Source: Naegleria gruberi (Eukaryota). Taken from it: DNA of 64,000 nt. The stretch lies in assembly GCA_000004985.1 (NCBI GenBank), contig GG738895.1. One strand, 5' to 3'. The notes beneath the pieces were generated by a model. The model did not search any database and had not been told where the DNA came from. It saw nothing but the letters and a program-made list of their open reading frames with translations. This document shows positions 2,530 to 57,058 of the stretch, piece after piece (the first letter of the stretch is position 1; each line of letters begins with the position of its first letter). The position numbers were made by a program, and so were the translations under genes.

Positions 2530-2541
2530 TACATAATATAT

Positions 2542-33475: not shown

Positions 33476-36400
33476 ATGTTGAAACTAAGACAACAACTCA
33501 TCAACACTGTCTTAAATTCACATTCTCCGACAGTGGGATTCAATACCTTGTTGTTTAATCATCAAACAACATCATTGGTAGGATCCACTACAACCTCATA
33601 TCGTGCTATTCATAATAATCGTGGTGGTAATAATAACTTTAGAAACAATGATAATGACAATAACAATAGAGGAGAATTTAAACCAAGATTCAACAAGCAA
33701 TATCGATCATCCGATGATGCTACTTCATCTTCAACAACTAACTTTAACAAGAATAGTGAAAATAGACGAGCACCATCTTCATCAAATAATTATTCATCTA
33801 ACAACAGGGCTTCGGATGGTACCAATGGATTCAAACAAAACCGTTTTGAAAAATCCAACAATAACTACCAAAGATCATCATACGACAATAATACTAGATA
33901 CGAAAACAAGTTTAAAAAGTACGATACTAATAATAACAATAGATTTAAACAACAAGGTGAAAGTCGCTTTGAAAAGTCTGATAATAAGTTTAAAAAGTAT
34001 GATGATAATAATGGTGATAACAACAGATTTAAACAACAAGGTGAAAATAGGGTTGAAAAGTCTGGCACTAACTACCAAAGACCTTCATACAATGGTGATA
34101 ACAACACAAGATATGAAAATAAGTTTAAAAAGTATGATGATAATGGTGATAACAACAGATTTAAACAACAAGGTGAAAATACAAGGTTTGAAAAGTATCA
34201 AAGATCATCCAATGAAGATAGAAATAACAACAATAGCTTTAGAAAGTATGACAGAGAAGAAAGGAGAGAAAGAGAGGAATTTAAGCCAAAATTCAAATCC
34301 ACAGTAGTTCCTTTTGATCAATACAAGAAACAAAACAAGACACAATCAAGTGACAAATTTTCAAGTGAATCATCACGTACTAGATCCAAGTCTCCTTATG
34401 GAACACAATCAAGGAATCAACCAAAATATGAAAGAAAGGAAAGATCCAATCCAATCTATGAATATGATGAAGAGATTGATACCCTTTTTGAAGATAATTT
34501 AACACAAAAATCTAGTAAGGGAAGAGAAAACACTCGATTCAAATCATCTATTGAGAATCATGTTGATTCATATATTAGTGGAAAAGAACAAAAACAACCA
34601 AGAAAACAAACCAAGATGGCCTATATTCCTGCAAATGAAAATGTTAGAAATATGATGAAAAAGGAAATGGACAATGATGATTTTGAAGATGATTTCCAAG
34701 ACCTTACAAGTGTTAAAAAGATTGATATGAAGAACGTCGATAAGGATACCAAGAAGAAACCAAGACAAAGAGAAATTAAAGATCCAATGAGTGATGATTT
34801 GAAATGGATTGATGAAGATGAATACATGGCCATTCGTCAAAAGGGAATGAAAAAGATCATGAACAGTAGAAATGATTCACTTTCTAAAGCCTCTTCTCAC
34901 ATCTTATCCCAATCTAGAAATAATGTCACAAAACCACTAAATGTTCCAAGCAATGTCACCTTTGTTATGGATGATTCCAGAAGTTTAACAAGAAACCAAC
35001 CAACAGAAGAAGAAATTGAGGATGATGATGAAGATGTAGTTTTCTATGGAGATGAAGACTTTGAAGAAGATGAAGATTTTGATTTTGAAGAGGATATGGA
35101 AGAAGAGGAAGAAGAAAAACCAAAAAAGAAGGGTTCAAAAAAAGTGAAAAAGGAGCAGGAAGAAGCTCCAAAAATTGATATTCTTCCAGATGCCATGGTT
35201 GGCAAGTATTTGAAACAAATACAAAAAGAAAAGATGTCAAAGAATAGAGAATTTAAGTCTTTGCCTGTTGTGAATGGAGTTGTAAAGGAAATTTTCTCTT
35301 GTGGGTTAGCATCGAAAAGAAGTTTGAAACAAGCTGAGTATCTTCAATACTTTACCAGTGATGAAGTTTCTAAAACTGATGAGGAAGCTCAATCTAGAAA
35401 TGCAATGGCTAACATGTTGGGCGGAAATAGGGTGATTGAAGCACAATTGAAGCGTCAACAAGTTGCCAGAAAGACAAACAAAACTAGTCTTGTCTACAAT
35501 CAACCAGAACTCAGAGCTGACTTGCAAGTGAAAGATGATGTTGTCAATTGGGTATTTAAAAATTACAAGATGAAATATATTGGTTCGATTGGACTTTCTA
35601 AGAAGGATGAAGAATTGCTTGCTAAGGAACTAGAACAAGAAATGCAAGAAGAAAATGAAGAAGAAAATGAAAAAGAAATTCAAGAAAAACAAGAAGAAAA
35701 CCAAGAAGAAAATGAGAATCAACGTCTAGATATTGACAAATTATCAAAGGAAGAGCTGGATGAAATTTTGGAGAAGGAAGAAAATCTCTATGACTTCTAC
35801 CGAAGAAATTTTGAGGATCAAGAAGAAGAGGAAGAAACCCAAGTAGAAAAGAAAGAAAAGAATGAAAAAGAAGAGCCTGAAACCTTGGTTAGAAAGCTCT
35901 ATGATATTTCTAGAATGCTTGAGAAATGCAAAGGAATTCCACAAGTGGCATTTGCAGGAAGATCAAATGTTGGTAAATCATCAATTATCAATGCAATTAC
36001 TGGTAGAAATAACCTCAAAGCATCTGAAAAACCTGGTCAAACAAAGGATTTGAATTTCCACAGATTTGGAAAACACTTTTGTCTGGTAGACATGCCTGGT
36101 TATGGTTTTGCCTTCACCAAGGACAGTTCTGTTACTCAAAAATGGTTGGATCTCATCAGAAATTATTTTGTACAAAGTAGTACTGATCTTAAGGTTGTCT
36201 TTTTATTGATTGATTCGCGTCTAGGACTTAAGAGAAAAGATATGGACATGATTTCATTCTTGGAAGAGAATAATGTTCCATACCAAATTGTTTTCACAAA
36301 ATGTGATTTGATGTATGTTGACGATTTGGCAAGAATGGCATTCAAAACATTCAAGATTGATCCACTCACAAAAGGCATGACATTCAAAAATCATATCAAG

Positions 36401-36556
36401 GATGAGGAAACAGGCGACTTTAGAATGGTTTTCGTGAGTTCCAGATCCAAGACAGGAGTTGCAAGATTAAAGGAGGATATCGTGCTAAGACATGCTAAAT
36501 TCGATGTTGAATCATGGAAAAAGAATGTTAAGAAGAATGTTGTACTATTTGTGTAG
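33476..36556 (+). CDS. EngB/YihA-type GTPase (GTPBP8-like) fused to an ~800-aa low-complexity N-terminal extension
   Basis: The C-terminal 200 aa carry G1 AGRSNVGKSS, G3 DMPGYG and G4 TKCD in EngB order. The N-terminus has a presequence-like start, N/D/K-rich tandem repeats and acidic E/D tracts. Confidence 0.75.
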   Translation: MLKLRQQLINTVLNSHSPTVGFNTLLFNHQTTSLVGSTTTSYRAIHNNRGGNNNFRNNDNDNNNRGEFKPRFNKQYRSSDDATSSSTTNFNKNSENRRAPSSSNNYSSNNRASDGTNGFKQNRFEKSNNNYQRSSYDNNTRYENKFKKYDTNNNNRFKQQGESRFEKSDNKFKKYDDNNGDNNRFKQQGENRVEKSGTNYQRPSYNGDNNTRYENKFKKYDDNGDNNRFKQQGENTRFEKYQRSSNEDRNNNNSFRKYDREERREREEFKPKFKSTVVPFDQYKKQNKTQSSDKFSSESSRTRSKSPYGTQSRNQPKYERKERSNPIYEYDEEIDTLFEDNLTQKSSKGRENTRFKSSIENHVDSYISGKEQKQPRKQTKMAYIPANENVRNMMKKEMDNDDFEDDFQDLTSVKKIDMKNVDKDTKKKPRQREIKDPMSDDLKWIDEDEYMAIRQKGMKKIMNSRNDSLSKASSHILSQSRNNVTKPLNVPSNVTFVMDDSRSLTRNQPTEEEIEDDDEDVVFYGDEDFEEDEDFDFEEDMEEEEEEKPKKKGSKKVKKEQEEAPKIDILPDAMVGKYLKQIQKEKMSKNREFKSLPVVNGVVKEIFSCGLASKRSLKQAEYLQYFTSDEVSKTDEEAQSRNAMANMLGGNRVIEAQLKRQQVARKTNKTSLVYNQPELRADLQVKDDVVNWVFKNYKMKYIGSIGLSKKDEELLAKELEQEMQEENEEENEKEIQEKQEENQEENENQRLDIDKLSKEELDEILEKEENLYDFYRRNFEDQEEEEETQVEKKEKNEKEEPETLVRKLYDISRMLEKCKGIPQVAFAGRSNVGKSSIINAITGRNNLKASEKPGQTKDLNFHRFGKHFCLVDMPGYGFAFTKDSSVTQKWLDLIRNYFVQSSTDLKVVFLLIDSRLGLKRKDMDMISFLEENNVPYQIVFTKCDLMYVDDLARMAFKTFKIDPLTKGMTFKNHIKDEETGDFRMVFVSSRSKTGVARLKEDIVLRHAKFDVESWKKNVKKNVVLFV
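33900..34205 (+). repeat. In-frame tandem repeat (about 3 copies of a ~90-105 nt unit encoding NKFKKYDDNGDNNRFKQQGEN...)
   Basis: Directly visible repeated DNA and protein units inside the EngB-like ORF. Confidence 0.5.
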
Positions 36557-37730: not shown

Positions 37731-39461
37731 ATGGTTCTCTTAACCATTTCACTTCTTCTCATCATTCTTGCACCACTCTCTTGGTTCATCTATGATAAGC
37801 TCTACAAACCATACTTGGACTGTCAAGTGCCAATCGAACAAATTGACAGCGTACTAAATGGAAACCAGAAGAAAATTGGAGAAACTGCCATCATTATTGG
37901 TGGATCATTCTCTGGTCTCACAACAGCCATGGTACTAAGTAAATACTATGAAAAAGTCCTCATCATTGATCGTTCCAAAATTATTCCAGACGAATCTATT
38001 GCCAAAAATAGACAAGGTGAACAAGCTCACGTAATTGCCTATCGTTCAATGCTTGTCTGGGAGAAATTATTACCTGGATTCCTAGATGAATTGAAAGAGT
38101 ATCTGAAAAGAAACAAATTAAATCAAATAGTTTATCCTGCAAGTCAAATTAAATATAATTATAAGAATGGTTTGGGAGTTTCGGATCATTTGGATATGAG
38201 AAAGAATCCAATGATTATGGCATCTAGAGGTCAGATTGAAACTATTTTGAGAGATAAAGTTAAGAGAGAATTGAAAAATGTAGAGTTTATTGATGGTTAT
38301 GCAGTTTCGTCTAGTGGAATTAAAGTTGAAACTGTTTCGGATAATTTAAATGGAAAGGTGACTCGTGTTAAATCTGTTACCATTACAAAGGTAGATTCTA
38401 ATGAACAAGATCAAGCCGGCAATTCCAAAACAATTGAATGTAATTTATTGGTCAATTGTGCAGGAGCTAATTCAAGTAATTTGATGAAAAATTTAGAAAA
38501 TGAAATTTCACCAAAAAAGAAAATTCTCACCAAATCATTTATTGATTGCAAGATTGGATATCAAACTATTTTCATGGAACCAAAAGATTCATCCTATGAT
38601 AGTGAAGGTAAAGTTGCCATTTATAGAGAAGAAAAAGAAAGTGAACAGGAAAATAGAAAATTGAATGATCCTTACTATATTGTCTATTATTTATTGTGTT
38701 ATCCAAGTAGAAAGGGTATTCTATTCATGCCATACAGTGATAATACCTTCCTCATCTTGTTAACAACTTACAATGAAAAGATTAACTCAGTTGAGTATGA
38801 AAATGCTAAAGAACAAATTATGGAATTCTGTTCAAGTAATCCAAAGATGGAAAGAGATGCTAAGAATATGCTTGAAAAATTCAAAGATATTCCAACAAAA
38901 ATTGTTCCATTCTTTGAAAAGAGTGGAAGTGAATATATTCACTATGAAGATTTGAAGGGAGTGAGAGATTTCATTGCAGTTGGAGATTCGTGTGGAAGTT
39001 TAAATCCTATTTATGGACAGGGAGTTACAATGGCTGTTGATTCTGCTGTGCTTTTAGATGAAATGATTAAGAATGAATTGAGTAAGAATGATTCATCCCC
39101 ACAACAAGTTTTCAAAGCATCATTCTGCCAGGAATTCCAATCAAGAATTTGTAAATCCTATCTCGTTCCATGGTTGTTGTGTTCAAGTACTGATATGAGG
39201 TTTGATTTTGCCAAGTACACTGATAATCTTTCAATGCAAAAGTTGATTGCTCCAATTTTGGGATGGGCCACAGATAAGATGTTCATGTCTGCCAATGTGT
39301 CATCAGTTTCTAGTTTCCACTTGATGAAACTCTTATTGATGGAAGATGGATTTAGAAAAGAACTTCTCAATTTGCGTTGGCTCTTTGGTTATGTTTTGAG
39401 AAAGGAAGCTATGATTGCAACTTTCTTATCACTTTCTGTCTATATTGCAACATTGTTTTAG
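37731..39461 (+). CDS. FAD-dependent oxidoreductase / monooxygenase family protein with C-terminal hydrophobic segment
   Basis: N-terminal dinucleotide-binding motif AIIIGGSFSGLTTAMVL..IIDR and a GD-type FAD motif IAVGDSCGSLNPIYGQGVTMAV. Specific enzyme not assignable. Confidence 0.6.
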   Translation: MVLLTISLLLIILAPLSWFIYDKLYKPYLDCQVPIEQIDSVLNGNQKKIGETAIIIGGSFSGLTTAMVLSKYYEKVLIIDRSKIIPDESIAKNRQGEQAHVIAYRSMLVWEKLLPGFLDELKEYLKRNKLNQIVYPASQIKYNYKNGLGVSDHLDMRKNPMIMASRGQIETILRDKVKRELKNVEFIDGYAVSSSGIKVETVSDNLNGKVTRVKSVTITKVDSNEQDQAGNSKTIECNLLVNCAGANSSNLMKNLENEISPKKKILTKSFIDCKIGYQTIFMEPKDSSYDSEGKVAIYREEKESEQENRKLNDPYYIVYYLLCYPSRKGILFMPYSDNTFLILLTTYNEKINSVEYENAKEQIMEFCSSNPKMERDAKNMLEKFKDIPTKIVPFFEKSGSEYIHYEDLKGVRDFIAVGDSCGSLNPIYGQGVTMAVDSAVLLDEMIKNELSKNDSSPQQVFKASFCQEFQSRICKSYLVPWLLCSSTDMRFDFAKYTDNLSMQKLIAPILGWATDKMFMSANVSSVSSFHLMKLLLMEDGFRKELLNLRWLFGYVLRKEAMIATFLSLSVYIATLF

Positions 39462-39524: not shown

Positions 39525-42500
39525 TTATTTCAAAAATTGTAACTCTGATTCATAAGCCTTTGGTTTGAATCGTTTTGGTAGTTCATTGGTTTTGGTATCC
39601 AATAACTTGGCATTTCCATCAAGTAACATGTTATCAAAGTGGAAAACGTTATCTTCCTTTGTCTTCTTGTTTACAATATCTGTGAATCGGTTAAATTCAA
39701 TCAATGGTTTGGCAATAACAGTTTCCAATCTTGGGGCTTCACCTAGAGCATCAATAATTTCAGAGGCAGAAATACCATTTGAGAAATCTTCAGATAAATG
39801 GCTCAAAACAAATCCAACTTGGTGTTTGGTCATTTCAGGACATACCAAAGTTCTCATTTCTTCTTGCAACAAGCCTTTTTGAACAATACATACGTCAGCA
39901 ACTTGTCTGCACATGACGAAAGCTTCTTCAGAGCTAGAGGTAGATTGTCTCAAACTGTGAATAATACCTTTAGAGTTGAACCAGTTCTCAATGAATGGCA
40001 ATCTCATCTTGATTTGAATAGCAGCATTTGTGTTCATCTTGTTTTGCAAGAAGTGGTTAAAGCATACAGCGTCAAGACCAGCAGCCAAATATTCAAAGAA
40101 ATGGTTGGAAATTCTCAAATCCACGTTATTGTTATCAAATTTGGATTTAAGTTCTGATAAACTTGCAAGAACAAATTTGATATCAGCTCCAGATTCTATT
40201 TCATATTGCTTTTCAGCAAAGAGAGCTCTAATCAACTTTTCTCTAACTCTACGAATGTGTTTCATAAGTAAATATGTGTAAGCCTTTCCTAATGTATTAG
40301 CCATTGATGTGAACAAGCTCTCCCAATTGGTAATAATTTCTTCGTTTTCTTCTCCTTCTTCAAGAGGTCTACTGAAAAGTTGTGGCATGTGTGGAGGATC
40401 GAATAGTGTTTCTTCTCCAGAAGCAGTGGTCTCTCTTGGACTTCTTAATGGACTTCTATTTCTTTGCTTCTCAAAAATAACAGCAGCATCACCAGTAGAA
40501 GTAGGTTTAAGTTGTTTGAGTGCCTTTTCAACAAGAGAGGCATTCTCCTTATCGAGTCCATGGAACATGGCAAGTAATCTACAAATTGCATTAATCCAAT
40601 AAATTAATTGATCATCATTGTGGGCATTCTTGTCTACAACATAATCAAGTGCATGAGAAACATTGGTAGCGAAAAGCTTATTTACACTCTTATTCTTTTC
40701 ATCGTTAATCTTCCACTTGTTAAGACATAGGAACAAAATTTTAACAGGAGTTGGAATTCTGCTATTCAAAACTTCAAAGGTTTGCACGTGTAAAATAGCT
40801 GACTCGACAACAAATCTTTGAACATCTAAAAGTTTGGATTGTTGAATGTAGGTGTCCATCTTTTCTTTAAGAACCTTTGCTTCTTCTTCCATCTTGGCCA
40901 TAGCTTCCTTGAGTACTGTTTCATTTTCACTCTTTTCATTAACTCCATTTTGCAAGTTATTAATTTCTTGGTTGCGCTTTTCAATAATCGAATCCAATTC
41001 ATTCATTGTAGTAACTTTTTGTTCCAGTTCTTGAGATTTTTCTGATAACTCTTGCTCCTTGGATTGAATGTTGTTAACAAGATTTTGTAAATCTTTTTCT
41101 CTAGTTTCAAGTTCTGTCTTTAGAGTTTGAATTTGCTCCTCTTGTTCAGTGACAGCTTGTGATTTTTGTACAAGTTCTTCATCAAGTTTGCTGAGTTTTT
41201 GTTCAAGTAATTCTGCTTCGGCTTGCTTTTCTTGAATCTTGTTATGAGCGTCTTGGAGTTGATTATTGAGATCAGATATTTCCTTTCCTTGTTGTTCAGT
41301 ACTTTCCAAAAGAGTACCTCTTTCTTGTTCGAGATCTCTCTTTTCTTTTTCAAGCTTTTCTAACTTTTCATCCATTTCATATTTCAATCTATTGAGAGCA
41401 TCTTCACTATTGACTTGAAGTCCCAAAAGTTCTCTGAGTTCATCTTGCTTGTTCTTCAACTCTTCGTCCTTTGATGAAATGATTCTGTCTTTTTCAGAAA
41501 TAGTTTTTTCGAAATCAGCAAGTTTTTCATGCAAACTCTCAAATTGCTTATTGAGGAATGATTGTTTGGCTTCTTCAGCGCTAGATGATTCTTCATTATT
41601 ATTGACTAAAGTACCGATCTTTGAGATGATATCTGCAATATTCTTGTTGTACTGTTCTTCTTTTTCTTCAATAACTTTGTTAAGACCTTGGGCCTTTTCG
41701 TCTTGCTCCTTTACTTGTTGTTGCAATTTTTCAACCACTAAATTGCTAGCATCCAACTCAGTGGTTACTCTTTCTTGCTTTTCTTTCAGGGTTTCAATTC
41801 TATTTTCCAGAGAAAGAACAATCTCCTTTGATTTAAATAGATCATTGATAGCTTCATCACGTTCTTGGATGGTTGTGGCCAATTGATTAGATTGTTCTGC
41901 GGAGGCATTCTTGAGTTTAGAAATTTCCTCTTCCAGTTGTTCAATACTTGCTTCTCTTTCGCTCAAAGATGCTTCAGCTCTATACTTGTCTTGGGTTACT
42001 TCGTTGAGTTGAGCTTTAGTAGTGTTGAGGTCATTATTGAGAGAATCAATTTGTTCATTCAAAGACTTAATATCCTTTTCTAAGGAGTCCGATTCTTCTT
42101 TTGCGGATACAAGTTTAGTCTCCAGAGATTCTTTTTCTTGAGTAAGACTTGAAATAATCTCTTCCTTGTGAGAGACTGACTTTGACAACAACATATTTTG
42201 GTGTTGATTGTCAGTAACATCATCTTCAAGTTTGGAGATTGATTCTCTGAGTTGAGCAATAATGATACCGAGATCCTTCTTCTCAACTTCAGCATTTTGA
42301 AGAATTTCAATCTTTTCTGATTCTAATTTTTCAAGTTTTTCAAGAGTTGAATCTTTTTCTTTGGTGATATCTTCAGCCAATTTTTTACTGGTGGCCAGTT
42401 GTTCACCAATTTCCTCCTTTGCTCTTCTTGTTTGTTTCAACTGTTCAGCAATTTCATCTTTCTCTTGATTGGCAATTTTGAGTGATTCTTGTGCCTTGTT

Positions 42501-45500
42501 CAATTCTTGGAGGAGCTTGTTGCCCATTTCTTCCTTTTCATTGATACTGGCCTCAAGAAGAGATTGTTTTTCTTTTTCTAAACTTTCAATCTTTGATTCA
42601 AGATCGATGATTTGACCCTTGTATTGTTCTCCATCTTCATTGGCATTCTTTAACTCTTGTTGAAGACTCTTGATGGTTTCTTCAAGTTGAGATTTTTGAC
42701 TTTCCAATTGGGTAACCTTGTTGCCCATAACTTCCTTTTCATTAAAGCTAGTTTCAAGAAGAGATTGTTTTTCCTTTTCCAAATTTTCAATCTTTGATTG
42801 AAGTTCAGTGATTTGACCCTTGTATTGTTCTCCATCTTCTTTGGCATTCTTGAGTTCTTGTTGGAGACTCTTGATAGTTTCTTCAAGTTGAGATTTTTGG
42901 GTATGAAGATCTGAATTGTCTTTCTCTATTCTAGAGATATTTTCATCCTTTAGGGAAATAATGTGCAACATTTCATCCTTTTGAGAGAGGGTAGAGTCAA
43001 GAAGTGATTGTTTTTCTTTTTCTAAGACTGCAATCTTCTTGTTAAGATCTGAAATTTGGCCTTTGTATTCCTCTCCATCTTCCTTGACTTTGTTAAGCTC
43101 GTCTTGAAGATTTTCAATCAATGTTTCAAGTTGAGCCTTTTGCTCATCTACTTGTTCTTTGTCTTTTTGGACCCTTTCGACCACTTGTTGTATGGTTTCA
43201 ACTTTTTGGTTTAATTCTTGAACCTTATTTTCAGCCAATAAGTGTTTCTTTTGGAGTTCTTCCAATTCTGAGGAGCTTGTTCTTAATTTCTTGGTAAATT
43301 CAAGAATTTCTAAGTCAGCTTTTTCTTTCTCTTGTTCCAATGATTCAAGCTCTTGTTCGAGCTCGTTACGTTCAGTCTTAATACCCTCTAGTTCCTTACC
43401 AAGTGATTCATACTTTTCGGAGAGTTCTGAATGTCTTGTTTGCAAAGATTCGAACCTGGACACTTGTGATGCAATTTCTTCAACTTTTTCCTTAATTTGA
43501 TTCAACAGGTCTTCCTTTTCTTCTGAATGAGCAGTTTCAAGATTCTTCTTTTCGGTCTCCAAGCTTTCTAATTGAATAATGACACCAGATAGTTTTTCGA
43601 CAGTGACATCCTTTTCTTCTCTCTCGGTAGCCAATGCAGACTTTGTAACTGATATTTCAGCCTTTAAACGCTCAATCTCTTTTTCTAATTCATCCTTAGC
43701 TGAAGCTTGTATTTCTATTTCTCTCTTCAAGCTTTTGATTTCCTCCTCATTTTGTTGGAGAAGTTTCAAAAGCTCTTCTTGTTTGCTCTTGAGTTCAATT
43801 TCCTTGTCATGTATGGCTGAGTCCTTTTCAGTAAGGAATGATTGGATAGCGATCAGTTGTTCTTTGAGATTGATGATTTCATTAGTGAGGCCATCCTTTT
43901 GATTAATTAAAAGTTCAATAACACTATCAGCAGAGTCACTATCTGTGCCAACAATCTTTGAAAGCTTACTGACCAAAGAGGTAATTTCATTCTTGTACTT
44001 AGCTTCTTGTTCAGAAAGGTTGGTGTTGAGTGTATCGATATTCTCCTCCTTGTTTTGAAGTTCAGACTTGAGGGCTTCAATTTGCTTCTTGCTTGCCTCA
44101 ACATCTCCATTCAATTCTGCAACTGATGACTCGAGCTTGGCAATAGAAGATTCCATTTCCACTATCTTGTCTTGCTTTTCTCTAATGCTTTGGACTTGCT
44201 CTTCAACTTGAGATTCTAATCCTTGTATGAGTTCTTGTTTGGCATTGATGTCAGATAAATGTTTTTCAATGGCGTCTTGCTTTTCTCTGAGAGTATTCAG
44301 GTAAGAATCATTGCTTTGATCAGTTTCGGATCTGAGCAAAGTAATTTGCTCCAACAATCCTTCCTTTTCCCTTTGGAGGGAACCAATATCTTCCTTTGAT
44401 TTTTCTAAATTGGAAATAACTTCGGTAAGCTCCACCTTGATGGAAGCCAATGATTCATCTAGTGTTTTCTTTTCCTCAACCAACTTATCAATAGAATCTT
44501 GTTTTTCATTGACAGATTTAGACAAAATAAGGGATTGATGTTGATTTTCAGTAACATCATCTTCAAGTTTGGAGATTGATTCTCTGAGTTGAGCAATAAT
44601 GATACCGAGATCCTTCTTCTCAACTTCAGCATTTTGAAGAATTTCAATCTTTTCTGATTCTAATTTTTCAAGTTTTTCAAGGGTTTCAGTCTTCTCCTTG
44701 AGTAAACCTTCATTTTCAGTGGAAATTTGGGAAATTTCTTGTTCAAGATCCTCCTTTGCTCTTCTTGTTTGTTTCAACTGTTCAGCAATTTCATCTTTCT
44801 CTTGATTGGCAATTTTGAGTGATTCTTGTGCCTTGTTCAATTCTTGCAAAAGTCTGTTACCAGCTTCTTCCTTTTCATTGATACTGGCCTCAAGAAGAGA
44901 TTGTTTTTCTTTTTCTAAACTTTCAATCTTTGATTCAAGATCGATGATTTGACCCTTGTATTGTTCTCCATCTTCATTGGCATTCTTTAACTCTTGTTGA
45001 AGACTCTTGATAGTTTCTTCAAGTTGAGATTTGTGACTTTCCAATTGCTCCTTGTCTTGTTCAATTCTATTGATACTATCATCCTTTGAGTTGATGATGC
45101 TATTCAATTCTTGAATCTTATTTTCAGCCAATAAGTGTTTCTTTTGGAGTTCTTCCAATTCTGAGGAGCTTGTTCTTAATTTCTTGGTAAATTCAAGAAT
45201 TTCCAAGTCAGCTTTTTCTTTTTCTTGCTCCAAGGATTCAAGCTCTTGTTCGAGCTCGCTACGAGCATTCTTGATATTCTCCAATTCCGTTTCAAGAGCA
45301 CTATTTGAAGTTCTAAGCTCATTAATCTCAGTATCTTTGTTTTGCATTTGTTCTAGCATGTTATTGAGCTTGTCTACAGTTGTATCTTTCTCTTCTCTTA
45401 TGGTTCCAAGTTGCTCTCTGAGTTCTGAAATTTCTTGTTTCAACTTTTCAATTTGGTCATCCAGGGTAGTATGGTGGTCGAGGGCTTGGGCGAGTTTTTC

Positions 45501-48500
45501 TTGATTGATCTTGAGATCCTTTTCTATTTCGTTCATTCTTTCCTCACGTTGAGCGATACTATTAGATAAAGATTCCTTTTCTTGTGAGGAAGATTCTCTT
45601 AGTAACTTTAAGGACTCTTCTAATTCTTCAATCTTAGTCTCTAGTAAAACTATCGTTTCTTGTTTCTTGGTATTTTCTTGTTCAACGATAATAATCTTCT
45701 CTCCAAGAGTTTGCTTGTCGGATTTTGTTTGAGAAAGCTCTTCGGAAAGAGTATTGTTTTCTTCCTTTACGTGTTTCAATTTCTCTTTGGTTTCTTCCAA
45801 CTCTTTCAACAAGGAACCTTCCTTAAGATCAGAGCTAGAAAGAAGACTGTTCTTCTCTTGAGTAAGGGTTTCAACTTGTTTGTTTAGTGAAATAATTTCC
45901 ACTTCATTCTCCTTAATTTTCTCTGAAAGCTTGGACTTCTCAGAGATATGTTTTTCTAGTTCTCTAGTCTTTTCTTCAATAAGGTTTGTCAGGTCTGTCA
46001 ACTTCTTGTCTGCATCACTTGAGAGAGATTCGAGTTCTGAAATTCTACCTGCTGAGGTTTGCAATTGTGAAGTAGACTCAGCGAGTTGATCTTCTAGCTG
46101 CTTCTTTGCTTCCTCCAATTGTTGCAGTTTGTCAGCAAGTTGATTCTTTTCGGAAAGTAATTCACTAATTTGACTAGAAAGAGTATCAGAGCCTTGACCC
46201 AATCTTTCCAATTCATCCTTAGTTCTTTCTAAACTTTGGCTTGTTTCTTCCAACTTTTGTTTGTATTCTAATACTTGTTTATCCAATTGTTCATGAGCAC
46301 TAATTTCTTTAGAAAGTTCTTGTTCCTTTTGTTGAATAGTTGCAGAAAGTTCTTTTCTCTCCTTTGTCAATAAATCTTCAATGTCGTTCTTTTCTTTTTG
46401 AATCTTTTCAATTCTTTGCAGCAATCCTGAAACCTCTGATGATGTATTTTCTTTATCACTTGTAATAAGTTTTAATTGCTCTTCTAAATTGGAAATATTG
46501 GACAAGGCTCTTTCGAGATCAACCTTGAAAGTATCTCTTTCTTGGACAGTACCTTCGAGTTCTTGTTCCTTGTCCTGTAGCGATTTGGAAACTTGTGCAG
46601 ATTTTTCTTGTTCACTCTTCAGAGATTCTTCAAGGGTAGTAACTCTGGATTTGATTTCTACCAATTCCGTTGCTAGGTTTTTCTTTTCATCGTTAAGTTC
46701 AGAGACCTTTTGTTGTGATTCGGTGAGATTTTGTTTTAGTTCCTCGATAGTGGAATTGAGAGAAGTTATTGTTTTCTCGAGGTCATCTGATTTTTGCTTG
46801 AAATCCTCAATTTGAGATTCAAGCTCTTCATTTTGTTTTCTAACAGATTCGACTTCCTGACTGACTTTGGAAAGTTTCTCATCTAATGACCCATTTTGCA
46901 CCTTCAATGATTCATATTCTTGCAACAAGTTATTCAGCTTTTCCTTATGTTCTGACAATTCTTTGAAGAATGTTTCTTTCTCCTTTTCGGTTTGAGAAAG
47001 AACTTCCTTAGTTCTATTCATTTCATTTTGAAGGTTAATATACAGCGAATCCTTTGTTTCAGAATCATTAAGATTTTGATCTTGCAAATCTTTAAGTTGC
47101 TTCTTAATCGATTCAATCTCATTAAGAGATTTTTCTTTTTCATCACGAGTTTGTTCCAATGTCTTATTAATATTTACAAGTTCTTGTTGTGTATCTTGTA
47201 ATTGCTTTTCTAAAGATAGCTTCTCGGTGGAATGCTGTTCAATAGTTGTATTGTTCTGATTAACAAGATCTTCATATTTTTGGGAAAGGGTGTTATACTC
47301 CTTTTCTTGATTGTCTTTGTTTTCATTTAGACTGGAAATAGTAGCTTCTAACGATGAAATTTGTTGAGTTAAAGAAGAAACCTTATCTTGCAAATCAACT
47401 TTTGCTTTAGTTTCGGCTTCAATCTCGCTCTCTCTGGTCTTTAACTCCTTTCTAAGATTGGATTCCTTTTCAGAAACGTCAGAAAGGTTTGATTCAAGAC
47501 TTGAAATCTTTTCAGACATTTGCTTAACCTCATTGTTGAGTCTTTCCTTCTCTCTATTTGCCTCATCAAGTTGTTGCTCTTTTTGCTTAATATTGTTCAT
47601 CAGTTCTTGTGATAAACTTTCTTGACTTGCCAAGGAAGTAGTAATAAGTTGATTCTTTTCATTCTCGAGTTGAGTAACTTTTTCATTCAGTAACTTGATT
47701 TCACTTTCAAGTTCAACCTTATCCTTTTTGACTTGATCTAATTCTGAATCAATTCTACTGTTAAACTCAACTAACTCCAAATTGGTTTGCTTGATTGCAT
47801 TTAACTTTAGAAGAAGAAGATCTGTCATTTTATGCAACTCTTCTTGAATTTGATCCGGATGAATCTTTTCAAACTCGTTACTCTTGCTATGGTTAATAAA
47901 TTCGTCACTTAATTTGGTGGCTTCTTTAATCTTCTTCTTGAAGTCATTGTCTTCAGTCACTTGAGTCATAGCTTCTTCCAGTTTCTTCTTCAGCTTGTTG
48001 AATTCTTGAATACATGACAACAAAATTTCATGTTCCTTGTTGGTCTTTTGGAGATTATGATTAGTCTTCTCAAGTTGAGTAGTAATTTCTGATTTTTCCT
48101 TCAAAATCTTTTGAATAGATTCGTGATTCTCGTTATCTTCTTTTTCTTTCAACTTCTTCAAGCTTTCAAGTTCAGATCTGATAATCTCAATATCTTTTTC
48201 TTTTGAAGATGCTTCACTTTCATAATGCTTCTTCAAGAATTATAGTGTTTCCATATTTTTTAAAACTTACCTTAAGTCTTGTGAGCTCTGAATTTAACTC
48301 TTCATTTGTATGCTTGAGTTGTTTAACATTTTCTTCGAGATTATGAGATTTATCCTCTGATGCCTTCAACTTTAGAGAAACTGATGAAACCTCCTCTTGT
48401 ATTTCCTCAATACGACCTTCATACTCACGACTAGATTTTTCCTTCTCTGCATTATTTTCCTGAATAATGTCATCCTTTCTGGAAGATTCCTGTTTCAAGT

Positions 48501-49701
48501 TTTCAATACTTTCCTCCAAGGATTTAATTTGTTTTTGAAGTGTTTCCTTTTGTTCTTGCAAGGTATCAGATTCTGCTTCCATCTTTTAACATTATTAGAA
48601 ACATTGTTAAAATGTTGAAACCTACCTCTTCAAGCTTATCTTTTGTTTGCTTGATTTGTTGTTCATACTTTTGTTGGGCTTGTTTCGATTTGAGTTGAAT
48701 CTCAAACAATTTGCTGTCTGCCTCTTGTTGGGCTTCTTGGGCACGATCATATTCTTCCCTAAGATTTTTAGCTTCCTCCTGAATAATTCTCAACTTTTCC
48801 TCGAGTTCATCTCTTTCCTTTGCAATTTGAGATACTATGGATGTCTTGTCATCCCCTTCAAGCTCTTTAATACGTTTCTGAAGGGATTCTATTTGTTCAC
48901 GTAACTCTCCAACAATATTTTCCTCAGCAAGTGATCCTCTGCTGAGTATGAAGGAACCTCCATTTCTAGGTGTTCCATAATCCTGTTAATAATAAACAAA
49001 TATTATAATTTCCAAAATCTATATGTAAACATACATTGTGAGTGGCTTCATCTTCCTCTTCTCCATTATCTCCTCCTGTATATGTACTAACTCCATCAAA
49101 ATCATCATCACTATCAACCAATATATTGATCATCATTTGTTCAATTTAAAAACTTACAGTCCGGGAACATTTTTCAAGCATCTTGAATTGATGACAATTT
49201 TAAGTTTAGCTTTTCCGACAGGTTTTGGGATAACCAAGCTGAGTTCCTTTGTTTGTGTAACTTCCTCACTTTCATTAACAAATTGACCAAGATCAAGTTC
49301 CTCCTTTACCAAAACAGTATCTTTTGATTGGTGTGTTTTGTTATTTGTAACTCTTTCCTCAAGAGTAAGTACTAAATCCTTCTTTTGAAAAACACCCTTC
49401 TTTTTGACAAGTGTACCATTAAACTTGAAAGTAGTATTCCAAGTCACTCTTTCTCTGTCAATTTTGGTGTATGGTGTTTCACCTTTACGTTTCTTACCTC
49501 TCTTCCAATGAACCTATAAACAAATATAAGAAATTCCATTTGATTATTTAAAAAACATACTGCATAAAACACATCTTCATCAGGTGTTGGTTGACGAGAT
49601 AAACTTGAATTTTTAAAATCAAAGAGGTGATCAACAGACAAATTAAATTGGAATTTAACATTTTCCTTTCCACCTCCAAGGAAAGATTTCTTTTTCAACA
49701 T
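39525..49701 (-). CDS. Giant NT-C2 / coiled-coil / DIL (dilute) domain protein, about 3315 aa, 6 exons
   Basis: Exons are 49701..49561, 49513..49158, 49110..49035, 48982..48626, 48582..48271 and 48230..39525, totalling 9948 nt in frame, with 41-52 nt introns. The N-terminus is an NT-C2-type C2 domain, followed by about 2500 aa of heptad coiled coil. The C-terminal ~400 aa look like a myosin-V-type DIL cargo-binding domain. Confidence 0.75.
42080..45300 (-). repeat. Near-identical intragenic segmental duplications inside the giant coiled-coil exon
   Basis: Stretches of 100-300 nt at about 42180-42900 recur almost base-for-base at about 44515-45050, and 43230-43380 recurs at 45128-45280. Protein blocks such as SQLEETIKSLQQELKNA.EDGEQYKGQI occur 4 times, and RSELEQELESLEQEKEKADLEILEFTKKLRTSSSELEELQKKHLLAENK occurs twice. 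Confidence 0.65.
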
Positions 49702-50133
49702 GTTGTTGTTATTGGTGGTGATTGTACTAGTAGTGTATATAAATTAATAATAAATAAATTAAAACGCCTAAATTCTCTCCAAAAATTTCCAATAGTAATT
49801 AATTCTAACTATCAACACTCCAAATGTAAAACAGAAGCGTTCTCCAGTTTCCTAAATACTCTTGATGATGATACTTAATCAAAAAGCCTACTGATGCTTC
49901 CCGATGAGGATGATGAAAATTTTTTTTAAAAAGGCTTGAAGGATTAATTTGCTTGTTGATAGCTGTTGTGATCCAAAGTTTATTTTCTGCCACTCCGACA
50001 CCTGCTATTTGGAACTCAAATAGATTTTAAAAATAAATTTAAATTTTTTTAAAATATCAAATTGGATATTTGTTTTTGGTAAAATTGCCCCTTGTCAAAG
50101 GCAAGTGACATTTTAATAGAAAATTGAAATTCT

Positions 50134-53753: not shown

Positions 53754-54458
53754 ATGTCAGGAGACGATCATCACCAACACCATCATCATCACAGTGGAGG
53801 ATGTTGTTCCGAAGCCCATAGTGGAGATTTTCATGAACACGATCATCATTGCGAACATGATCACGGAGCACATGATAAGAATGAATTAGAAGGATTTCAA
53901 CAAACACTCTATCCATATATTGATAAAATTCATGTCCGTTGTTTGAATGAACATAAACTAAATGCTTGCCAATCAATTATTAGACCATACGATCAAAGAA
54001 AATCAAAAGATGGATATTTGGAAAGTGCTGTTGATGAGGAATTATTACTTGTTGTTCCTTTTACAGTTTCAACAAATTTAAAATCTTTTCAAATTATTGG
54101 AGGAGACAATGAGTCATGTCCAAGCAAAGTCAAAATATTCAAGAATAATGAATTATTAGATATTGAAACTGCTACACAAAAGAAGGCTGATCAAGAGCTT
54201 GATTTAACTTTTGATATTGAAGGAACTTATGACTTTTTGTTAAAGCAAAGCAAGTTCAATAACTGCCAATCTATTACTCTCTTCTTCCCTTCAAATTTTG
54301 GAGCTGAAAATACAAGGATTTCATATATTGGATTTAAGGGAGATTACTCTGATTTTAAGAGAAGAGCTGTAGAAGCAATTTATGAATCTGCTCCTCAAAT
54401 GAAGGATCATAAAGTAGATTGTGAATGGACCAATTCCAAGACAATTGGTGGACAATAA
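53754..54458 (+). CDS. PITHD1: PITH-domain protein (PITHD1-like) with His/Cys-rich N-terminus
   Basis: The PITH (proteasome-interacting thioredoxin) beta-sandwich spans about aa 45-200. The first 40 aa are MSGDDHHQHHHHHSGGCCSEAHSGDFHEHDHHCEHDHGAHDK. Confidence 0.7.
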   Translation: MSGDDHHQHHHHHSGGCCSEAHSGDFHEHDHHCEHDHGAHDKNELEGFQQTLYPYIDKIHVRCLNEHKLNACQSIIRPYDQRKSKDGYLESAVDEELLLVVPFTVSTNLKSFQIIGGDNESCPSKVKIFKNNELLDIETATQKKADQELDLTFDIEGTYDFLLKQSKFNNCQSITLFFPSNFGAENTRISYIGFKGDYSDFKRRAVEAIYESAPQMKDHKVDCEWTNSKTIGGQ

Positions 54459-54571
54459 TTTTTTAACATCTAAATCTATTAATTTATTAGCTACTACTCA
54501 TTTCACAATGTTAAAAAATATTCTACCACACTCACTATATAAAATTTGTAAATAAAGAAATAAGTATGGAA

Positions 54572-56929
54572 TTATTCTCTCAATAAGGCTTCGAATTGTG
54601 GAGCAATCTTGTTAATTCTTTGTTCGAATAATTCGTTTGCCTTATCAAGTCTTTGACTTAGCGCTTTGAATTCATTTCCAGTAGTTGTAAGTTTCTTAAG
54701 AACTGCATAACTTTGTTGCCAGAATGGGATTGCAACTTCTCTGAATTCTTTATATGGATTTTGACAACAGAGGAACATGGATTTAAAGTTCTTTGGACTG
54801 AGTTTGTCTTCTGGGGTTGACAAAAGGTAATAAGCCAAAATACCCATAATATTGTTATGGTCAACAGAAAAACCAGTGATATCTCTCATAGTAGACATGA
54901 CACCTGATAAACTTTCAGATGAAATACTACGAGACATGTATACTGCTGTCAATAATGATTCATACAAGTGAGCAATATTTGTTTGCAATAATTTAACAAT
55001 GGAATAGTAAATAGCGAGATCTAACTTGATTAATCCTGTCCAACCACTCTTAGACAATGATGTACGTCTAAATGTTAATGGAACAAGACTCAAAATTCTA
55101 GTGATCAACAATATTTCATCTTCATTTTCAATCTTTTCCTCAACTGCGTATGGTTTTTCGTAAGTCCAAGAAGCAGTAAGAATGTTCATCTTGGCTAATT
55201 CAACGAGCACAAGTGTTTGTTCTATATGAGTCTTGGCATTAGATAAAACCTTTCCTTTAGAGGACAAGATGTCTAATGATCCTTGTTGTGGTTTCTTAAT
55301 ATATCCCAAAGTTTCCAAAACTTTCAAGTGAATAAATGTTTTAACTTCATTTGGTGTGGTAAAGTTTTGCATTTGATTCTTCTTGAGAAGTGTTGGTTTC
55401 AAATTCAATACCAAGCCCAATGACATAGAGTTATTGGTATATGTAATTTTCTGTTGTTGAAGATATTTGGTGATGTTTGCTTCATTAATTTGGAATTGAA
55501 GGCCATCCATAAATACATTTACAGGTTTTCTTTCTATATAAATTGTGTCGTTAGAATTTTCATCTGAAGAGTTATATCTAACAAGCATAACATTTTTGTG
55601 TTTAAAGTAGTCATTCATTTCACTAGTCAAATAGTTCAATGATGATGTATAAATAGGTTTCCAAGTGTTGATAAATTCCTTATATTCCAAAGAATCAAAA
55701 AGAGGATTTGGTTCATAAAATACTCCATTCACTAAATTTCCGACCAATTGTGGTGATAAAATACCATGACAAATTAAAAAGTAAATTTCTTCAGGTAATC
55801 TTTCTCCAACAATTTCTTCAAAGTCTCTAGGAAGAGCATCTCTATTCATTACAACAACTGTATTTCCAATAAAATCCAAAACTGGATGATGCATAATCAA
55901 ATACTTATTTAACAAGAAAGGCACTGTAAGATCCTCACGAGAATTCATTGTAAGAATACTTTTAGCTGAACCAATTCCTTTGATATTATCAATTTCTGTT
56001 TTGAAACGATCCTCTTTCTTTACAGTATTTTGGAATGGTGAAGGAGAAGAAAATCCTTTGAAAAAATAGCTTCCTGAAAGAAGAGCTGCATCCAAAAATT
56101 GATTGCTACTAATTCTTTCTTGTGTAAGAATTGTCTTCTTTTCCACATATTGGAATGTCTTTTCATCAAAATTAAGTGAGAAAATAACTTTAGGAATATC
56201 AAACATTAATAATTCTTCATCTCCCATAACACCATTAACCAATTTAGCATCAGACATGTATGACAGTTGTCCCCAAGCTAAATATGGTGCTCTCAAAAAT
56301 TCGATATCATTTTCATTAAACAATTCAAATAATGCATTAAGAGTGTCAATTGATGCCAAAAATTGATTTCCTTGTGCTGTTTACAAAGTGTGTAATTTTA
56401 AATATTAATTAATATTAATACAAACCTCTAGAGAATAACATAAGGGCTTCTCTCTTTTGATCCTTTTCATAAGAACCCCAAGCAGATTTCAAAGAAACTG
56501 TTCTAGCTTGATATATACTTGTTGAGCGTTCCTTCTTTACGCAATTAATACCATTAAATACAAAAACTGGTGTAATTCCAGCATCCCTAAATATATTTGA
56601 AAACTATTTCTTCATCAAATACTTACTTGAATTGTTTTAAATTAGTTTGAACCAATAAAGCTAATGAAATAGGAGTACCTCCTGTAGCCATTTGGAAAGG
56701 TTCATGTTTTTCATCATATAAAACTTTCAACCAATGAAATCCATCAATTCCTATTTTACATCCACGAAGAGCATCAAGAGATTCCTTTTTAATAAAGTTT
56801 TTTTCAGATAAATAACCTATACAATCATGATGATAATAATAATATTAAAAATTCCGTAATGAAATTAATCCACAATTAATTCACTTGATGATTAATAAAA
56901 AACATACTAGACAATCCTTGAATCGTCAT
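54572..56929 (-). CDS. XPG-N/PIN-like nuclease-fold protein (MKT1 / FEN1-family N-domain), about 750 aa, 4 exons, with an apparent frameshift in exon 2
   Basis: Exon 1 is 56929..56908 (MTIQGLS). Exon 2 is 56815..56627 (YLSEKNFIKKESLDALRG / CKIGIDGFHWLKVLYDEK..TGGTPISLALLVQTNLKQF). Exon 3 is 56586..56426 (DAGITPVFVFNG...). Exon 4 is 56376..54572. The XPG-N signature (M.IQGL, IDG, G.TP, ITPVFVFNG) is clear, but the ESLDALRG and CKIGIDG blocks are in frames offset by 1 nt near 56757. Confidence 0.5.
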
Positions 56930-57046
56930 TTTGATCAAATAAATGTAATACTATTAACAAAATTTATTACAACAACAATGTTCTTGTTATTGTATTTTTT
57001 TTAATTTAAATTTAGGAAATTTTTGCTTGCCAGTTCTTCTTGCAAT

Positions 57047-57058
57047 TTTGGCGCCAAA
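57047..57058. promoter_or_regulatory. Perfect palindromic E2F-type site TTTGGCGCCAAA in the divergent promoter between the XPG-N gene and the membrane-protein gene
   Basis: Exact 12-bp palindrome identical to the classic high-affinity E2F/DP site. Confidence 0.35.

What the first reader, a model, noticed from the sequence alone, without database searches (positions are those of the whole stretch)
39525..49701. A ~3300-aa protein with an unusual NT-C2 + 2500-aa coiled coil + DIL cargo-binding tail architecture
An N-terminal C2-like membrane-targeting module combined with a myosin-V-type DIL domain, but with no motor domain and an enormous coiled-coil spacer, is not a standard described family. 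It could be a tether or adaptor linking membranes to myosin-V-like cargo receptors, or a giant spacer protein.
Basis: inference. Interest (0 to 1): 0.55.

Follow-up and report, generated by a model that had tools for sequence, protein, structure and literature searches.

The report
Giant motorless myosin-V-tail tether protein
This Naegleria gruberi gene encodes a 3,315-residue protein with a lipid-binding C2 head, a rod up to about 0.4 µm long and a myosin-V-type cargo-binding tail but no motor. It is an oversized, apparently unannotated member of a small uncharacterised protist family that probably tethers membranes to Rab- or adaptor-marked cargo.

Summary
On the minus strand, ATG at 49701 to TAA at 39525, six exons joined by five 40-52 nt GT..AG introns encode 3,315 aa. 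The protein has three parts:
- A coiled coil of about 2,666 residues.
- A complete myosin-V-type globular tail (aa 2881-3315). Its DIL core scores E=9.3e-11, the family profile matches the MyoVa tail at E=5.5e-41, and the best 34 fold matches are all myosin tails.

The window is Naegleria gruberi NEG-M. The layout is not unique. The Willaertia magna orthologue (1,730 aa) and at least seven other protist proteins (581-1,396 aa) combine NT-C2 with this tail. The same tail clade also occurs behind CH or RasGAP heads, and only one of its 49 nearest relatives is a myosin.

The N. gruberi copy is the extreme. It has about 1,300 extra rod residues, some from recent internal duplications. No protein in the searched collections resembles its tail by more than 41%, so the gene appears to be unannotated.

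The function is inferred. The most likely role is a dimeric tether or adaptor that links a phosphoinositide membrane to Rab- or adaptor-marked cargo. I found no experimental paper on this architecture.

The parts
39525..49701 (-). Whole coding region of the giant gene (ATG at 49701, TAA at 39525-39527). Six exons, 3,315 aa.
   Evidence: Start and end are validated by alignment with the Willaertia orthologue P0013.
49561..49701 (-). Exon 1 (141 nt, aa 1-47). It holds the basic N-terminal patch MLKKK and the first NT-C2 strand.
49158..49513 (-). Exon 2 (356 nt). It holds the rest of NT-C2, including the basic loop HWKRGKKRKGET.
49035..49110 (-). Exon 3 (76 nt). Acidic linker with the DDDFDGVST motif. 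The Willaertia gene has an intron at the equivalent place.
48626..48982 (-). Exon 4 (357 nt). End of the linker and start of the coiled coil.
48271..48582 (-). Exon 5 (312 nt). Coiled coil.
39525..48230 (-). Exon 6 (8,706 nt including the stop). It holds most of the rod and the whole globular tail. The only two donor-like hexamers inside it lie in conserved DIL coding sequence.
49172..49668 (-). NT-C2 domain, aa 12-161 (interrupted by intron 1).
48914..49171 (-). Acidic, Gly-rich linker, aa 162-214 (interrupted by introns 2 and 3). Probably disordered.
   Evidence: Sequence. pLDDT is below 50 from residue 167 in the model.
40833..48913 (-). Coiled-coil rod, aa 215-2880 (2,666 residues). It would be about 396 nm long if it were one continuous coiled coil.
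   Evidence: Composition, Pro/Trp depletion and heptad score against shuffles. Length estimate and absence of a 28-residue charge repeat.
42153..43403 (-). Internal repeat block B of the rod. It includes tandem 201-nt (67-aa) units.
   Evidence: the repeat finder families D1-D4 at 85-96% nucleotide identity to block A.
44490..45296 (-). Internal repeat block A of the rod, the duplicate of block B.
39528..40832 (-). Myosin-V-type globular tail domain (GTD), aa 2881-3315.
   Evidence: Family profile against PDB: MyoVa GTD at E=5.5e-41 over profile positions 4-379 of 390. It is still hit with only three motorless sequences. AF2 pLDDT 84.8 and pTM 0.86. Foldseek ranks 1-34 are all myosin V/XI/Myo2/Myo4 tails.
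39795..40100 (-). DIL core (PF01843) inside the GTD, about aa 3125-3226.
   Evidence: Pfam E=9.3e-11.
49702..50133 (-). 432-bp upstream intergenic region between the stop of the aldehyde dehydrogenase gene and the ATG. Presumed promoter and 5' UTR.
   Evidence: The promoter role is inferred.

Best explanation
The gene encodes a real, intact, motorless protein of the NT-C2 / coiled-coil / myosin-V globular-tail family.

Shown:
- The three modules are present.
- The family exists in other protists.
- The rod is greatly expanded in N. gruberi.

Inferred mechanism:
- The rod forms a parallel dimer, with two NT-C2 heads at one end and two tails at the other.
- The NT-C2 heads dock on an acidic, phosphoinositide-rich membrane through the basic N-terminal patch and the basic KRGKKRK loop, as in EHBP-1.
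- The tails bind Rab GTPases or cargo adaptors on a vesicle or organelle, as myosin-V tails do.
- The segmented rod, up to about 0.4 µm long, sets the capture distance.

The protein would then work as a passive long-range tether or adaptor. It would resemble EHBP1 in logic and the golgins or EEA1 in geometry, using a cargo-recognition module that is otherwise known from motors.
For: Gene reality. The 8.7-kb frame is open (P about 1e-101). The introns are canonical and AT-rich. The Willaertia orthologue is colinear: residues 12-190 are 50% identical, 216-888 are 28% and 2191-3315 are 29%. The intron after NT-C2 lies at the equivalent position in both genes.

Head. Pfam finds NT-C2 and the model has a C2 fold. 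Basic residues before strand 1 and in the strand-2 loop are kept across the family. These are the positions of the RRLRR and HRRRK patches that EHBP-1 needs to bind PI(4,5)P2 membranes (PMC4894640).

Tail. It is a complete GTD by profile and by fold. The solved relatives are cargo complexes with Rab11, melanophilin, Spir2 and MICAL1 (descriptions).

Rod. Heptad signal and Pro depletion are clear. There is no myosin-II-like 28-residue charge repeat.

Family context. NT-C2 plus GTD recurs in at least eight proteins. In Willaertia the same tail sits behind a CH (actin-binding-type) head, the second module of EHBP1. Plant RPG, which has NT-C2, a disordered region and a long coiled coil, acts in polarised secretion with an exocyst subunit (bioRxiv 10.1101/2022.06.03.494689).
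Against: - There is no experimental or expression evidence of any kind.
- Lipid binding, dimerisation, partner binding and localisation are all inferred from relatives that are only 15-30% identical.
- Rod length is not conserved (3,315 aa here, 1,730 aa in Willaertia, about 600-1,000 aa in other members). A precise spacer length is therefore unlikely to be the selected property.
- The rod has many register breaks, so 396 nm is an upper bound.
- No orthologue was seen in the N. fowleri or N. lovaniensis protein sets or at the partly syntenic locus.
- I did not check whether known cargo-binding residues of myosin V are kept.
Confidence: 0.5

Rival explanations
1. Decoy or regulator of DIL-dependent transport. 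The motorless tail competes with motor-borne tails for the same Rab or adaptor receptors, or binds a myosin head as myosin V's own tail does in autoinhibition. It would thereby anchor or retain cargo at an NT-C2-marked membrane rather than bridge two membranes.
For: The tail is a complete GTD. Tail-to-head autoinhibition in myosin V is established knowledge, as is the dominant-negative effect of expressing isolated myosin-V tails. One relative of this tail clade is a true myosin (P0048).
Against: Only one of the 49 nearest relatives is a myosin, and this clade is too far from the class V tails for single-sequence detection. A decoy does not need a 2,666-residue rod or a membrane-binding head. 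I did not establish whether Naegleria has any DIL-bearing myosin. A myosin survey lists class-1, class-2 and orphan myosins for heteroloboseans (PMC5583752).
Confidence: 0.15
2. Structural cytoskeletal rod. The coiled coil self-assembles into filaments or a striated fibre, for example a rootlet-like or cortical scaffold. The two end domains would serve only as attachment points.
For: The rod is very long and Glu/Lys/Leu-rich. Recent internal duplications show that it tolerates expansion. A second large coiled-coil gene lies nearby at 27918-33398.
Against: The rod shows no 28-residue or other long-range charge periodicity of the kind that drives staggered assembly of myosin II rods (z about 0). 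Family members with rods of only about 50-100 residues keep both end domains, so the conserved function lies in the ends.
Confidence: 0.15
3. Artefact: a mis-joined model of two genes, a pseudogene, or an assembly error in the repeats.
For: No protein in the large collections matches the tail at more than 41% identity, so no public annotation supports the model. Repeat blocks of 85-96% identity could in principle be mis-assembled.
Against: The frame stays open across 8.7 kb, including both repeat blocks. All five introns are canonical and restore the frame. An independently predicted Willaertia protein has the same head, linker motif, rod start and tail in one chain.
Confidence: 0.03

Closest known systems
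Willaertia magna KAL9645710.1 (hypothetical protein ABK040_003442, 1,730 aa)
   Same: Orthologue with the same order of parts: NT-C2 (E=4e-16), acidic linker with the D-E-D-F..V-S-T motif, coiled coil, and a GTD with a DIL core (E=3e-12) ending in ELSFLK. Identity is 50% in the head and 41% in the tail. The intron after NT-C2 lies at the equivalent place.
   Different: It is half the length. N. gruberi has about 1,300 extra rod residues (aa 889-2190 have no counterpart). The gene neighbourhood differs.
Class V/XI myosin globular tail domain (MyoVa/b/c, yeast Myo2p/Myo4p, plant XI-K)
   Same: The tail is homologous over the whole GTD (profile E=5.5e-41) and has the same two-subdomain helical fold (TM 0.5-0.64).
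   Different: There is no motor, no IQ neck, and a membrane-binding head instead. Identity to solved tails is 12-18%. This clade was not detected by single-sequence search of the PDB.
EHBP1 / EHBP-1 (NT-C2 + CH + Rab-binding bMERB)
   Same: It has an N-terminal NT-C2 with basic patches at the same two places, and the same overall logic of a lipid-binding head plus a C-terminal module of a kind that binds Rabs in myosin V. Heteroloboseans also have a CH / coiled-coil / GTD protein (P0033).
   Different: Pfam found no CH domain and no bMERB/DUF3585. The rod is vastly longer. It is not an EHBP1 orthologue.
Plant RPG / PMI1-type proteins (NT-C2 + disordered region + long coiled coil)
   Same: The layout from the N-terminus through the rod is the same. 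RPG is implicated in polarised membrane traffic and PI(4,5)P2 domains.
   Different: RPG (1,255 aa) has no globular tail described at its C-terminus. Homology beyond NT-C2 was not tested.
Golgins and EEA1 (long coiled-coil tethers)
   Same: Analogy only. These are dimeric rods hundreds of nm long, with a membrane-binding element at one end and a Rab- or vesicle-binding element at the other (established knowledge).
   Different: The end domains are unrelated, no homology is claimed, and localisation is unknown.
Afadin / RADIL (motorless DIL proteins of animals)
   Same: They show that DIL-containing modules function outside myosins (established knowledge).
   Different: Their architecture is different (RA, FHA and PDZ domains, no NT-C2, no giant rod). 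No comparison was made here.

Membership tests
NT-C2 domain family (PF10358) | Profile match above the curated threshold | tested here: met
   52.4 bits against 25.2, E=5.6e-14, aa 12-161, profile positions 2-138 of 143.
NT-C2 domain family (PF10358) | [quoted passage not shown] | tested here: met
   The domain starts at residue 12. The ATG is confirmed by alignment with Willaertia P0013.
NT-C2 domain family (PF10358) | C2-type beta-sandwich fold | tested here: met
NT-C2 domain family (PF10358) | Basic patches before strand 1 and at strand 2, as used by EHBP-1 for PI(4,5)P2 membranes | tested here: met
   MLKKK...K12 and HWKRGKKRKGET are kept as basic segments in all seven family members aligned. 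The functional precedent is PMC4894640.
NT-C2 domain family (PF10358) | Actual phosphoinositide or membrane binding | not testable with these tools
   Needs liposome binding or localisation experiments.
Myosin-V-type globular tail (DIL, PF01843) | DIL profile match above the curated threshold | tested here: met
   42.2 bits against 24, E=9.3e-11.
Myosin-V-type globular tail (DIL, PF01843) | Homology over the whole tail of about 400 residues, covering both subdomains | tested here: met
   Family profile against MyoVa 4lx1_A at E=5.5e-41, profile positions 4-379 of 390. A profile of three motorless sequences still hits MyoVa, Vb and Vc.
Myosin-V-type globular tail (DIL, PF01843) | GTD fold | tested here: met
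   Model with pLDDT 84.8 and pTM 0.86. The top 34 Foldseek PDB hits are all myosin tails, prob 1.00, TM 0.46-0.64.
Class V myosin | N-terminal myosin motor domain and IQ neck | tested here: not met
   Pfam finds NT-C2 at the N-terminus. Everything between it and the tail is linker and coiled coil. The protein is not a myosin.
Class V myosin tail function | Binding of Rab GTPases or cargo adaptors | not testable with these tools
   Needs pull-downs or complex prediction against N. gruberi Rabs. Conservation of the binding residues was not analysed.
NT-C2 / coiled-coil / GTD family (unnamed) | NT-C2 at the N-terminus and GTD at the C-terminus in one chain, seen in several organisms | tested here: met
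   P0013, P0040, P0050, P0052, P0053 and P0055 carry both domains by Pfam. P0017 and P0015 carry truncated NT-C2, and P0017's missing exon was found upstream. Stored Pfam hits for P0055 in an NCBI genome are NT-C2 plus DIL.
EHBP1 family | Central CH domain and C-terminal bMERB (DUF3585) Rab-binding domain | tested here: not met
   Neither was reported in the Pfam scans of the two ends. The middle is coiled coil.
Long coiled-coil tethers (functional class) | Rod of hundreds of residues predicted to form a coiled coil | tested here: met
   2,666 residues, one Pro, and a heptad signal above the 95th percentile of shuffles in most windows.
Long coiled-coil tethers (functional class) | The two ends sit on different membranes or capture vesicles | not testable with these tools
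   Needs two-end tagging and super-resolution imaging.

The most novel reading that the evidence does not exclude
Heteroloboseans and some other protists keep an old, motor-independent lineage of the myosin-V cargo-recognition domain, mounted on membrane-binding (NT-C2), actin-type (CH) or RasGAP heads. On this reading, the Rab/adaptor 'address code' read by myosin V is also read by passive tethers. N. gruberi has stretched one of these tethers to about 0.4 µm, long enough to capture organelles or vesicles at a distance from the plasma membrane or another phosphoinositide-rich compartment. This would bear on the open question of whether a DIL-bearing myosin, or only the DIL tail, was present early in eukaryote evolution.
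Probability: 0.2. Interest if true: 0.6.

Novelty: new variant of a known kind. Interest (0 to 1): 0.4.

Why it matters
- **Cargo recognition without a motor.** If the inference holds, the cargo-binding tail of myosin V is not only a motor accessory. It would also be a portable address reader that protists attach to static membrane anchors. That changes how DIL-domain evolution and early eukaryotic trafficking should be reconstructed.
- **An experimental handle.** The protein offers a natural series of tethers with the same ends and rods of about 50 to 2,666 residues. Such a series could be used to test how tether length affects capture.
- **An annotation gap.** A 10-kb gene seems to be missing from the reference proteome of a model free-living excavate, so proteome-based surveys of Naegleria will have overlooked it.

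Tried and rejected
- **Word-indexed homology search.** It returned nothing in all three tries: the tail plus 35 coiled-coil residues, the N-terminal 560 aa, and a concatenated head-plus-tail alignment. Relatives such as P0013 are in that collection, so I treat this as saturation of the candidate list rather than as absence.
- **Exact look-ups.** The exon-6 ORF, the N-terminal 414 aa, and the N. gruberi neighbours P0002 and P0005 found no contig or no entry. I therefore could not read the N. gruberi annotation table directly.
- **Single-sequence phmmer against the PDB.** It found nothing real for the tail. The NT-C2 profile found nothing in the PDB either.
- **Metagenome scans.** Two scans, one with a single protein and one with a three-sequence alignment, gave no relative. 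The 21-sequence alignment was too diverse to seed a scan.
- **AlphaFold-database fold search.** The library was unavailable, so I could not get a named taxonomic spread.
- **Synteny walk.** I walked from the CPI1 gene into N. fowleri and N. lovaniensis. The PITH, MKT1 and CPI1 genes are syntenic, but the giant gene's side is rearranged and holds no head or tail sequence.
- **Literature.** No paper in the searchable library holds NT-C2 together with DIL or dilute as whole words. Earlier hits were for 'diluted'. Zhang & Aravind 2010 (PMC2965036) is not held.
- **Rejected on evidence.** A myosin-II-like assembly repeat in the rod is not present. Hidden in-frame introns in exon 6 are unlikely, because the only two donor-like sites lie in conserved DIL codons. 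The nearby 1,826-aa coiled-coil gene is not a paralogue, because it has no NT-C2 or DIL.
Full report
**Source and setting.** The window is 29-39% G+C. Three of its single-exon ORFs are exact matches to Naegleria gruberi NEG-M proteins on one 333,733-bp contig: EFC40026, EFC40030 and EFC40091. Two further ORFs match EFC40094 and EFC40032. The gene in question lies on the minus strand. On one side is a convergent FAD-oxidoreductase-like gene (37731-39461, 63 bp from the stop). On the other is an aldehyde dehydrogenase gene that ends at 50134, 432 bp upstream of the ATG. The other neighbours are unrelated housekeeping genes: a DEAD-box helicase, an MMR_HSR1 GTPase, an M28 peptidase, MKT1 and a CPI1-like cycloisomerase. 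Gene context therefore says nothing about function.

**The observation.** A 2,903-codon open frame runs from 48236 down to 39525. Upstream, reading the minus strand from the ATG at 49701, there are four more coding blocks and five short interruptions. The interruptions begin GTATGT, GTAAGT, GTATGT, GTAGGT and GTAAGT, and all end in AG. They are 47, 47, 52, 43 and 40 nt long, and each restores the frame. They are 17-23% G+C, against 35% for exon 6. Joining the exons gives 9,948 nt and 3,315 aa with a single terminal TAA.

At this base composition a stop is expected about every 13 codons. The probability of 2,902 stop-free codons is about 1e-101, and the other five frames carry 90-351 stops. Exon 6 contains only two donor-like hexamers, and both lie inside conserved DIL codons, so it is one uninterrupted 8.7-kb exon. 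The acceptor of intron 5 could lie 3 nt further on, which would change the length by one residue.

**Domains at the two ends.**
- *Tail.* Pfam finds DIL near aa 3125-3226 (E=9.3e-11, 42.2 bits against 24). The tail is much more than the 100-residue DIL core. A profile of 21 family tails matches the whole MyoVa globular tail (4lx1_A) at E=5.5e-41 over profile positions 4-379 of 390, and also matches Myo2p, Myo4p and plant myosin XI tails. A profile of only the three closest motorless sequences still hits MyoVc, Va and Vb at E=8e-11 to 1e-5. The model of aa 2879-3315 has pLDDT 84.8 and pTM 0.86. Its 34 best Foldseek matches in the PDB are all myosin tails (probability 1.00, TM 0.46-0.64). The conserved last residues (ELQFLK) fit a complete tail.

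**The rod.** Between the ends lie an acidic, Gly-rich linker (aa 162-214) and then 2,666 residues of rod. The rod is 18.6% Glu, 13.0% Leu, 12.8% Lys and 8.8% Gln, with one Pro, one Cys and no Trp. In most 100-residue blocks, 40-97% of 28-residue windows exceed the 95th percentile of shuffled sequence for heptad a/d hydrophobicity. The end domains score at background.

As one continuous coiled coil the rod would be about 396 nm long. The register is not coherent over the whole length and 42 Gly residues are scattered through it, so this is an upper bound for a segmented rod. Part of the length is recent. DNA blocks at 42153-43403 and 44490-45296 are 85-96% identical, and tandem 201-nt units are present.

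**Relatives.** An exhaustive HMMER search of 1.84 billion cluster representatives with the 435-residue tail found only 49 proteins at E<=0.001. None was more than 41% identical.

- *Orthologue.* The best hit is Willaertia magna KAL9645710.1 (1,730 aa). It has the same layout: NT-C2 (E=4e-16), the acidic motif DEDF..VST, a rod, and a tail with a DIL core (E=3e-12) ending in ELSFLK. BLASTP aligns N. gruberi 12-190 with Willaertia 11-178 (50% identity), 216-888 with 327-934 (28%), and 2191-3315 with 643-1730 (29%). The alignments therefore cover sequence on both sides of all five N. gruberi exon junctions (aa 47, 166, 191, 310 and 414). About 1,300 N. gruberi rod residues have no counterpart. The Willaertia gene has an intron at the equivalent place just after NT-C2. 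One independent prediction in another genus has head and tail in a single chain.
- *Other NT-C2 plus DIL proteins.* Five more hits carry both domains by Pfam: P0040 (1,001 aa), P0050 (683), P0052 (704), P0053 (828) and P0055 (581). P0055 is a single-exon gene in an NCBI genome, and its stored Pfam hits are NT-C2 and DIL. P0017 (1,396 aa) and P0015 (650 aa) have truncated NT-C2. For P0017, the missing first half lies just upstream, across a GTATGT..ATAG intron that the gene caller missed.
- *Other heads on the same tail clade.* These include a CH domain (Willaertia KAL9645609.1, P0033), RasGAP (P0032, P0035, P0042), coiled coil alone (P0024; N. lovaniensis XP_044553991; Acrasis kona KAL0488181) and, once, a myosin (P0048).

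The architecture is thus a small family, usually with a short rod, and N. gruberi holds the extreme member.

**Annotation status.** The collections searched include the N. gruberi NCBI, UniRef and EukProt proteomes. Even so, nothing with at least 50% identity to the tail exists among the representatives. I infer that at least the 3' part of this gene is absent from the public N. gruberi protein set. UniProt numbers run from D2VT66 to D2VT67 across the locus, which fits this inference but does not prove it. I could not read the annotation table itself.

**Mechanism (inference).** NT-C2 domains bind acidic phosphoinositide membranes without calcium. In C. elegans EHBP-1, two basic patches are required for association with PI(4,5)P2-rich endosomes: RRLRR before strand 1, and HRRRK at strand 2 (PMC4894640). 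The Naegleria protein and all six aligned relatives keep basic segments at both places (MLKKK..K12 and HWKRGKKRKGET).

Solved myosin-V tails are cargo-recognition modules, seen in complexes with Rab11, melanophilin, Spir2, MICAL1 and RILPL2-type partners (entries listed). A parallel dimeric rod would put two lipid-binding heads at one end and two cargo-binding tails at the other. That is the logic of EHBP1 (NT-C2 plus a Rab-binding end) in the geometry of a golgin or EEA1.

Two further observations point to membrane-traffic and actin-related functions. Heteroloboseans also have a CH / coiled-coil / GTD protein. Plant RPG (NT-C2, a disordered region and a long coiled coil) works with an exocyst subunit in polarised secretion.

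I put the tether or adaptor reading at about 0.5. The main caveat is that rod length varies from about 50 to 2,666 residues in the family, so the ends, not a fixed length, carry the conserved function.

**Rivals.**
- *Decoy or regulator of DIL-dependent transport (0.15).* This is possible, but it does not explain the head or the rod. It also presupposes a DIL-bearing myosin in Naegleria, which I did not establish. A myosin survey mentions class-1, class-2 and orphan myosins for heteroloboseans (PMC5583752).
- *Filament-forming structural rod (0.15).* This is weakened by the absence of any 28-residue or other long-range charge periodicity, and by short-rod family members that keep both ends.
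- *Mis-joined, pseudogenic or mis-assembled locus (0.03).* This is unlikely given the open frame across both repeat blocks, the canonical introns and the colinear orthologue.

**Comparison with known families and novelty.** The protein is a member of the NT-C2 and DIL/GTD domain families, because all sequence and fold criteria tested were met. It is not a class V myosin, having no motor or IQ neck. It is not an EHBP1 orthologue, having no CH or bMERB domain. The combination recurs in protists but has no functional description that I could find. The paper that defined NT-C2 could not be read, so I cannot exclude that the architecture was already listed there. I rate it a new variant of a known kind: a lipid-anchored coiled-coil tether or adaptor that uses a motor-type cargo domain, in an exceptionally long and apparently unannotated form. 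Interest is moderate at 0.4. The anatomy is solid and unusual, but the function is wholly inferred, and giant coiled-coil proteins are common in protists.

Noticed in passing
window 39525-49701: The gene product appears to be absent from public protein collections that do hold the N. gruberi proteome. The best tail match among 1.84 billion cluster representatives is 41% identical, and the flanking genes carry consecutive UniProt numbers (D2VT66, D2VT67). It is probably an unannotated 10-kb gene.
   Followed up: partly
window 27918-33398 (+): A second large coiled-coil gene (about 1,826 aa, single ORF) lies nearby. Pfam finds no domain at either end, and the exact ORF is not in the protein collection. 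It is not a paralogue of the giant gene.
   Followed up: partly
window 42153-43403 and 44490-45296: There are recent in-frame internal duplications in the rod, at 85-96% nucleotide identity and including tandem 201-nt units. The rod seems to be growing by segmental duplication, and the copy number could be mis-assembled.
   Followed up: partly
P0033 (Willaertia KAL9645609.1); P0032, P0035, P0042; P0048: The same divergent tail clade is found behind other heads: a CH domain, a RasGAP domain and, once, a myosin motor. This points to domain shuffling around a motor-independent cargo-binding tail.
   Followed up: partly
L003 4827-5165: The called protein P0017 lacks the first half of its NT-C2. 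That half is encoded just upstream, across a 41-nt GTATGT..ATAG intron. A prokaryote-style gene call on a eukaryotic metagenome contig split the gene.
   Followed up: yes
Giant protein aa 166-175 and aa 3309-3315; alignments A2 and A3: Two short motifs are conserved outside the Pfam models. One is D-[DE]-D-F-x-x-V-S-T immediately after NT-C2, seen in Naegleria, Willaertia and P0017. The other is a C-terminal [ED]-L/F-x-F-L-[KN] ending shared by most full-length family tails.
   Followed up: no
window 53754-58222; L004, L005: The PITH, MKT1 and CPI1 gene order is conserved with N. fowleri and N. lovaniensis. Beyond PITH those species have ClpB and DNA polymerase epsilon in place of the M28 peptidase, ALDH and giant gene. 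Neither 20.8-kb locus holds NT-C2 or tail sequence.
   Followed up: yes
window 33476-36556 (+): This 1,026-aa ORF has an Asn/Arg-rich repetitive N-terminal half (repeated NNRFKQQGE.RFEKS units) fused to a C-terminal MMR_HSR1-type GTPase.
   Followed up: no
tool behaviour: The word-indexed homology search returned '8000 candidates, none scored' three times, although true relatives such as P0013 are in that collection. Coiled-coil or low-complexity words seem to saturate its candidate list, so its negative results here are not evidence of absence.
   Followed up: partly
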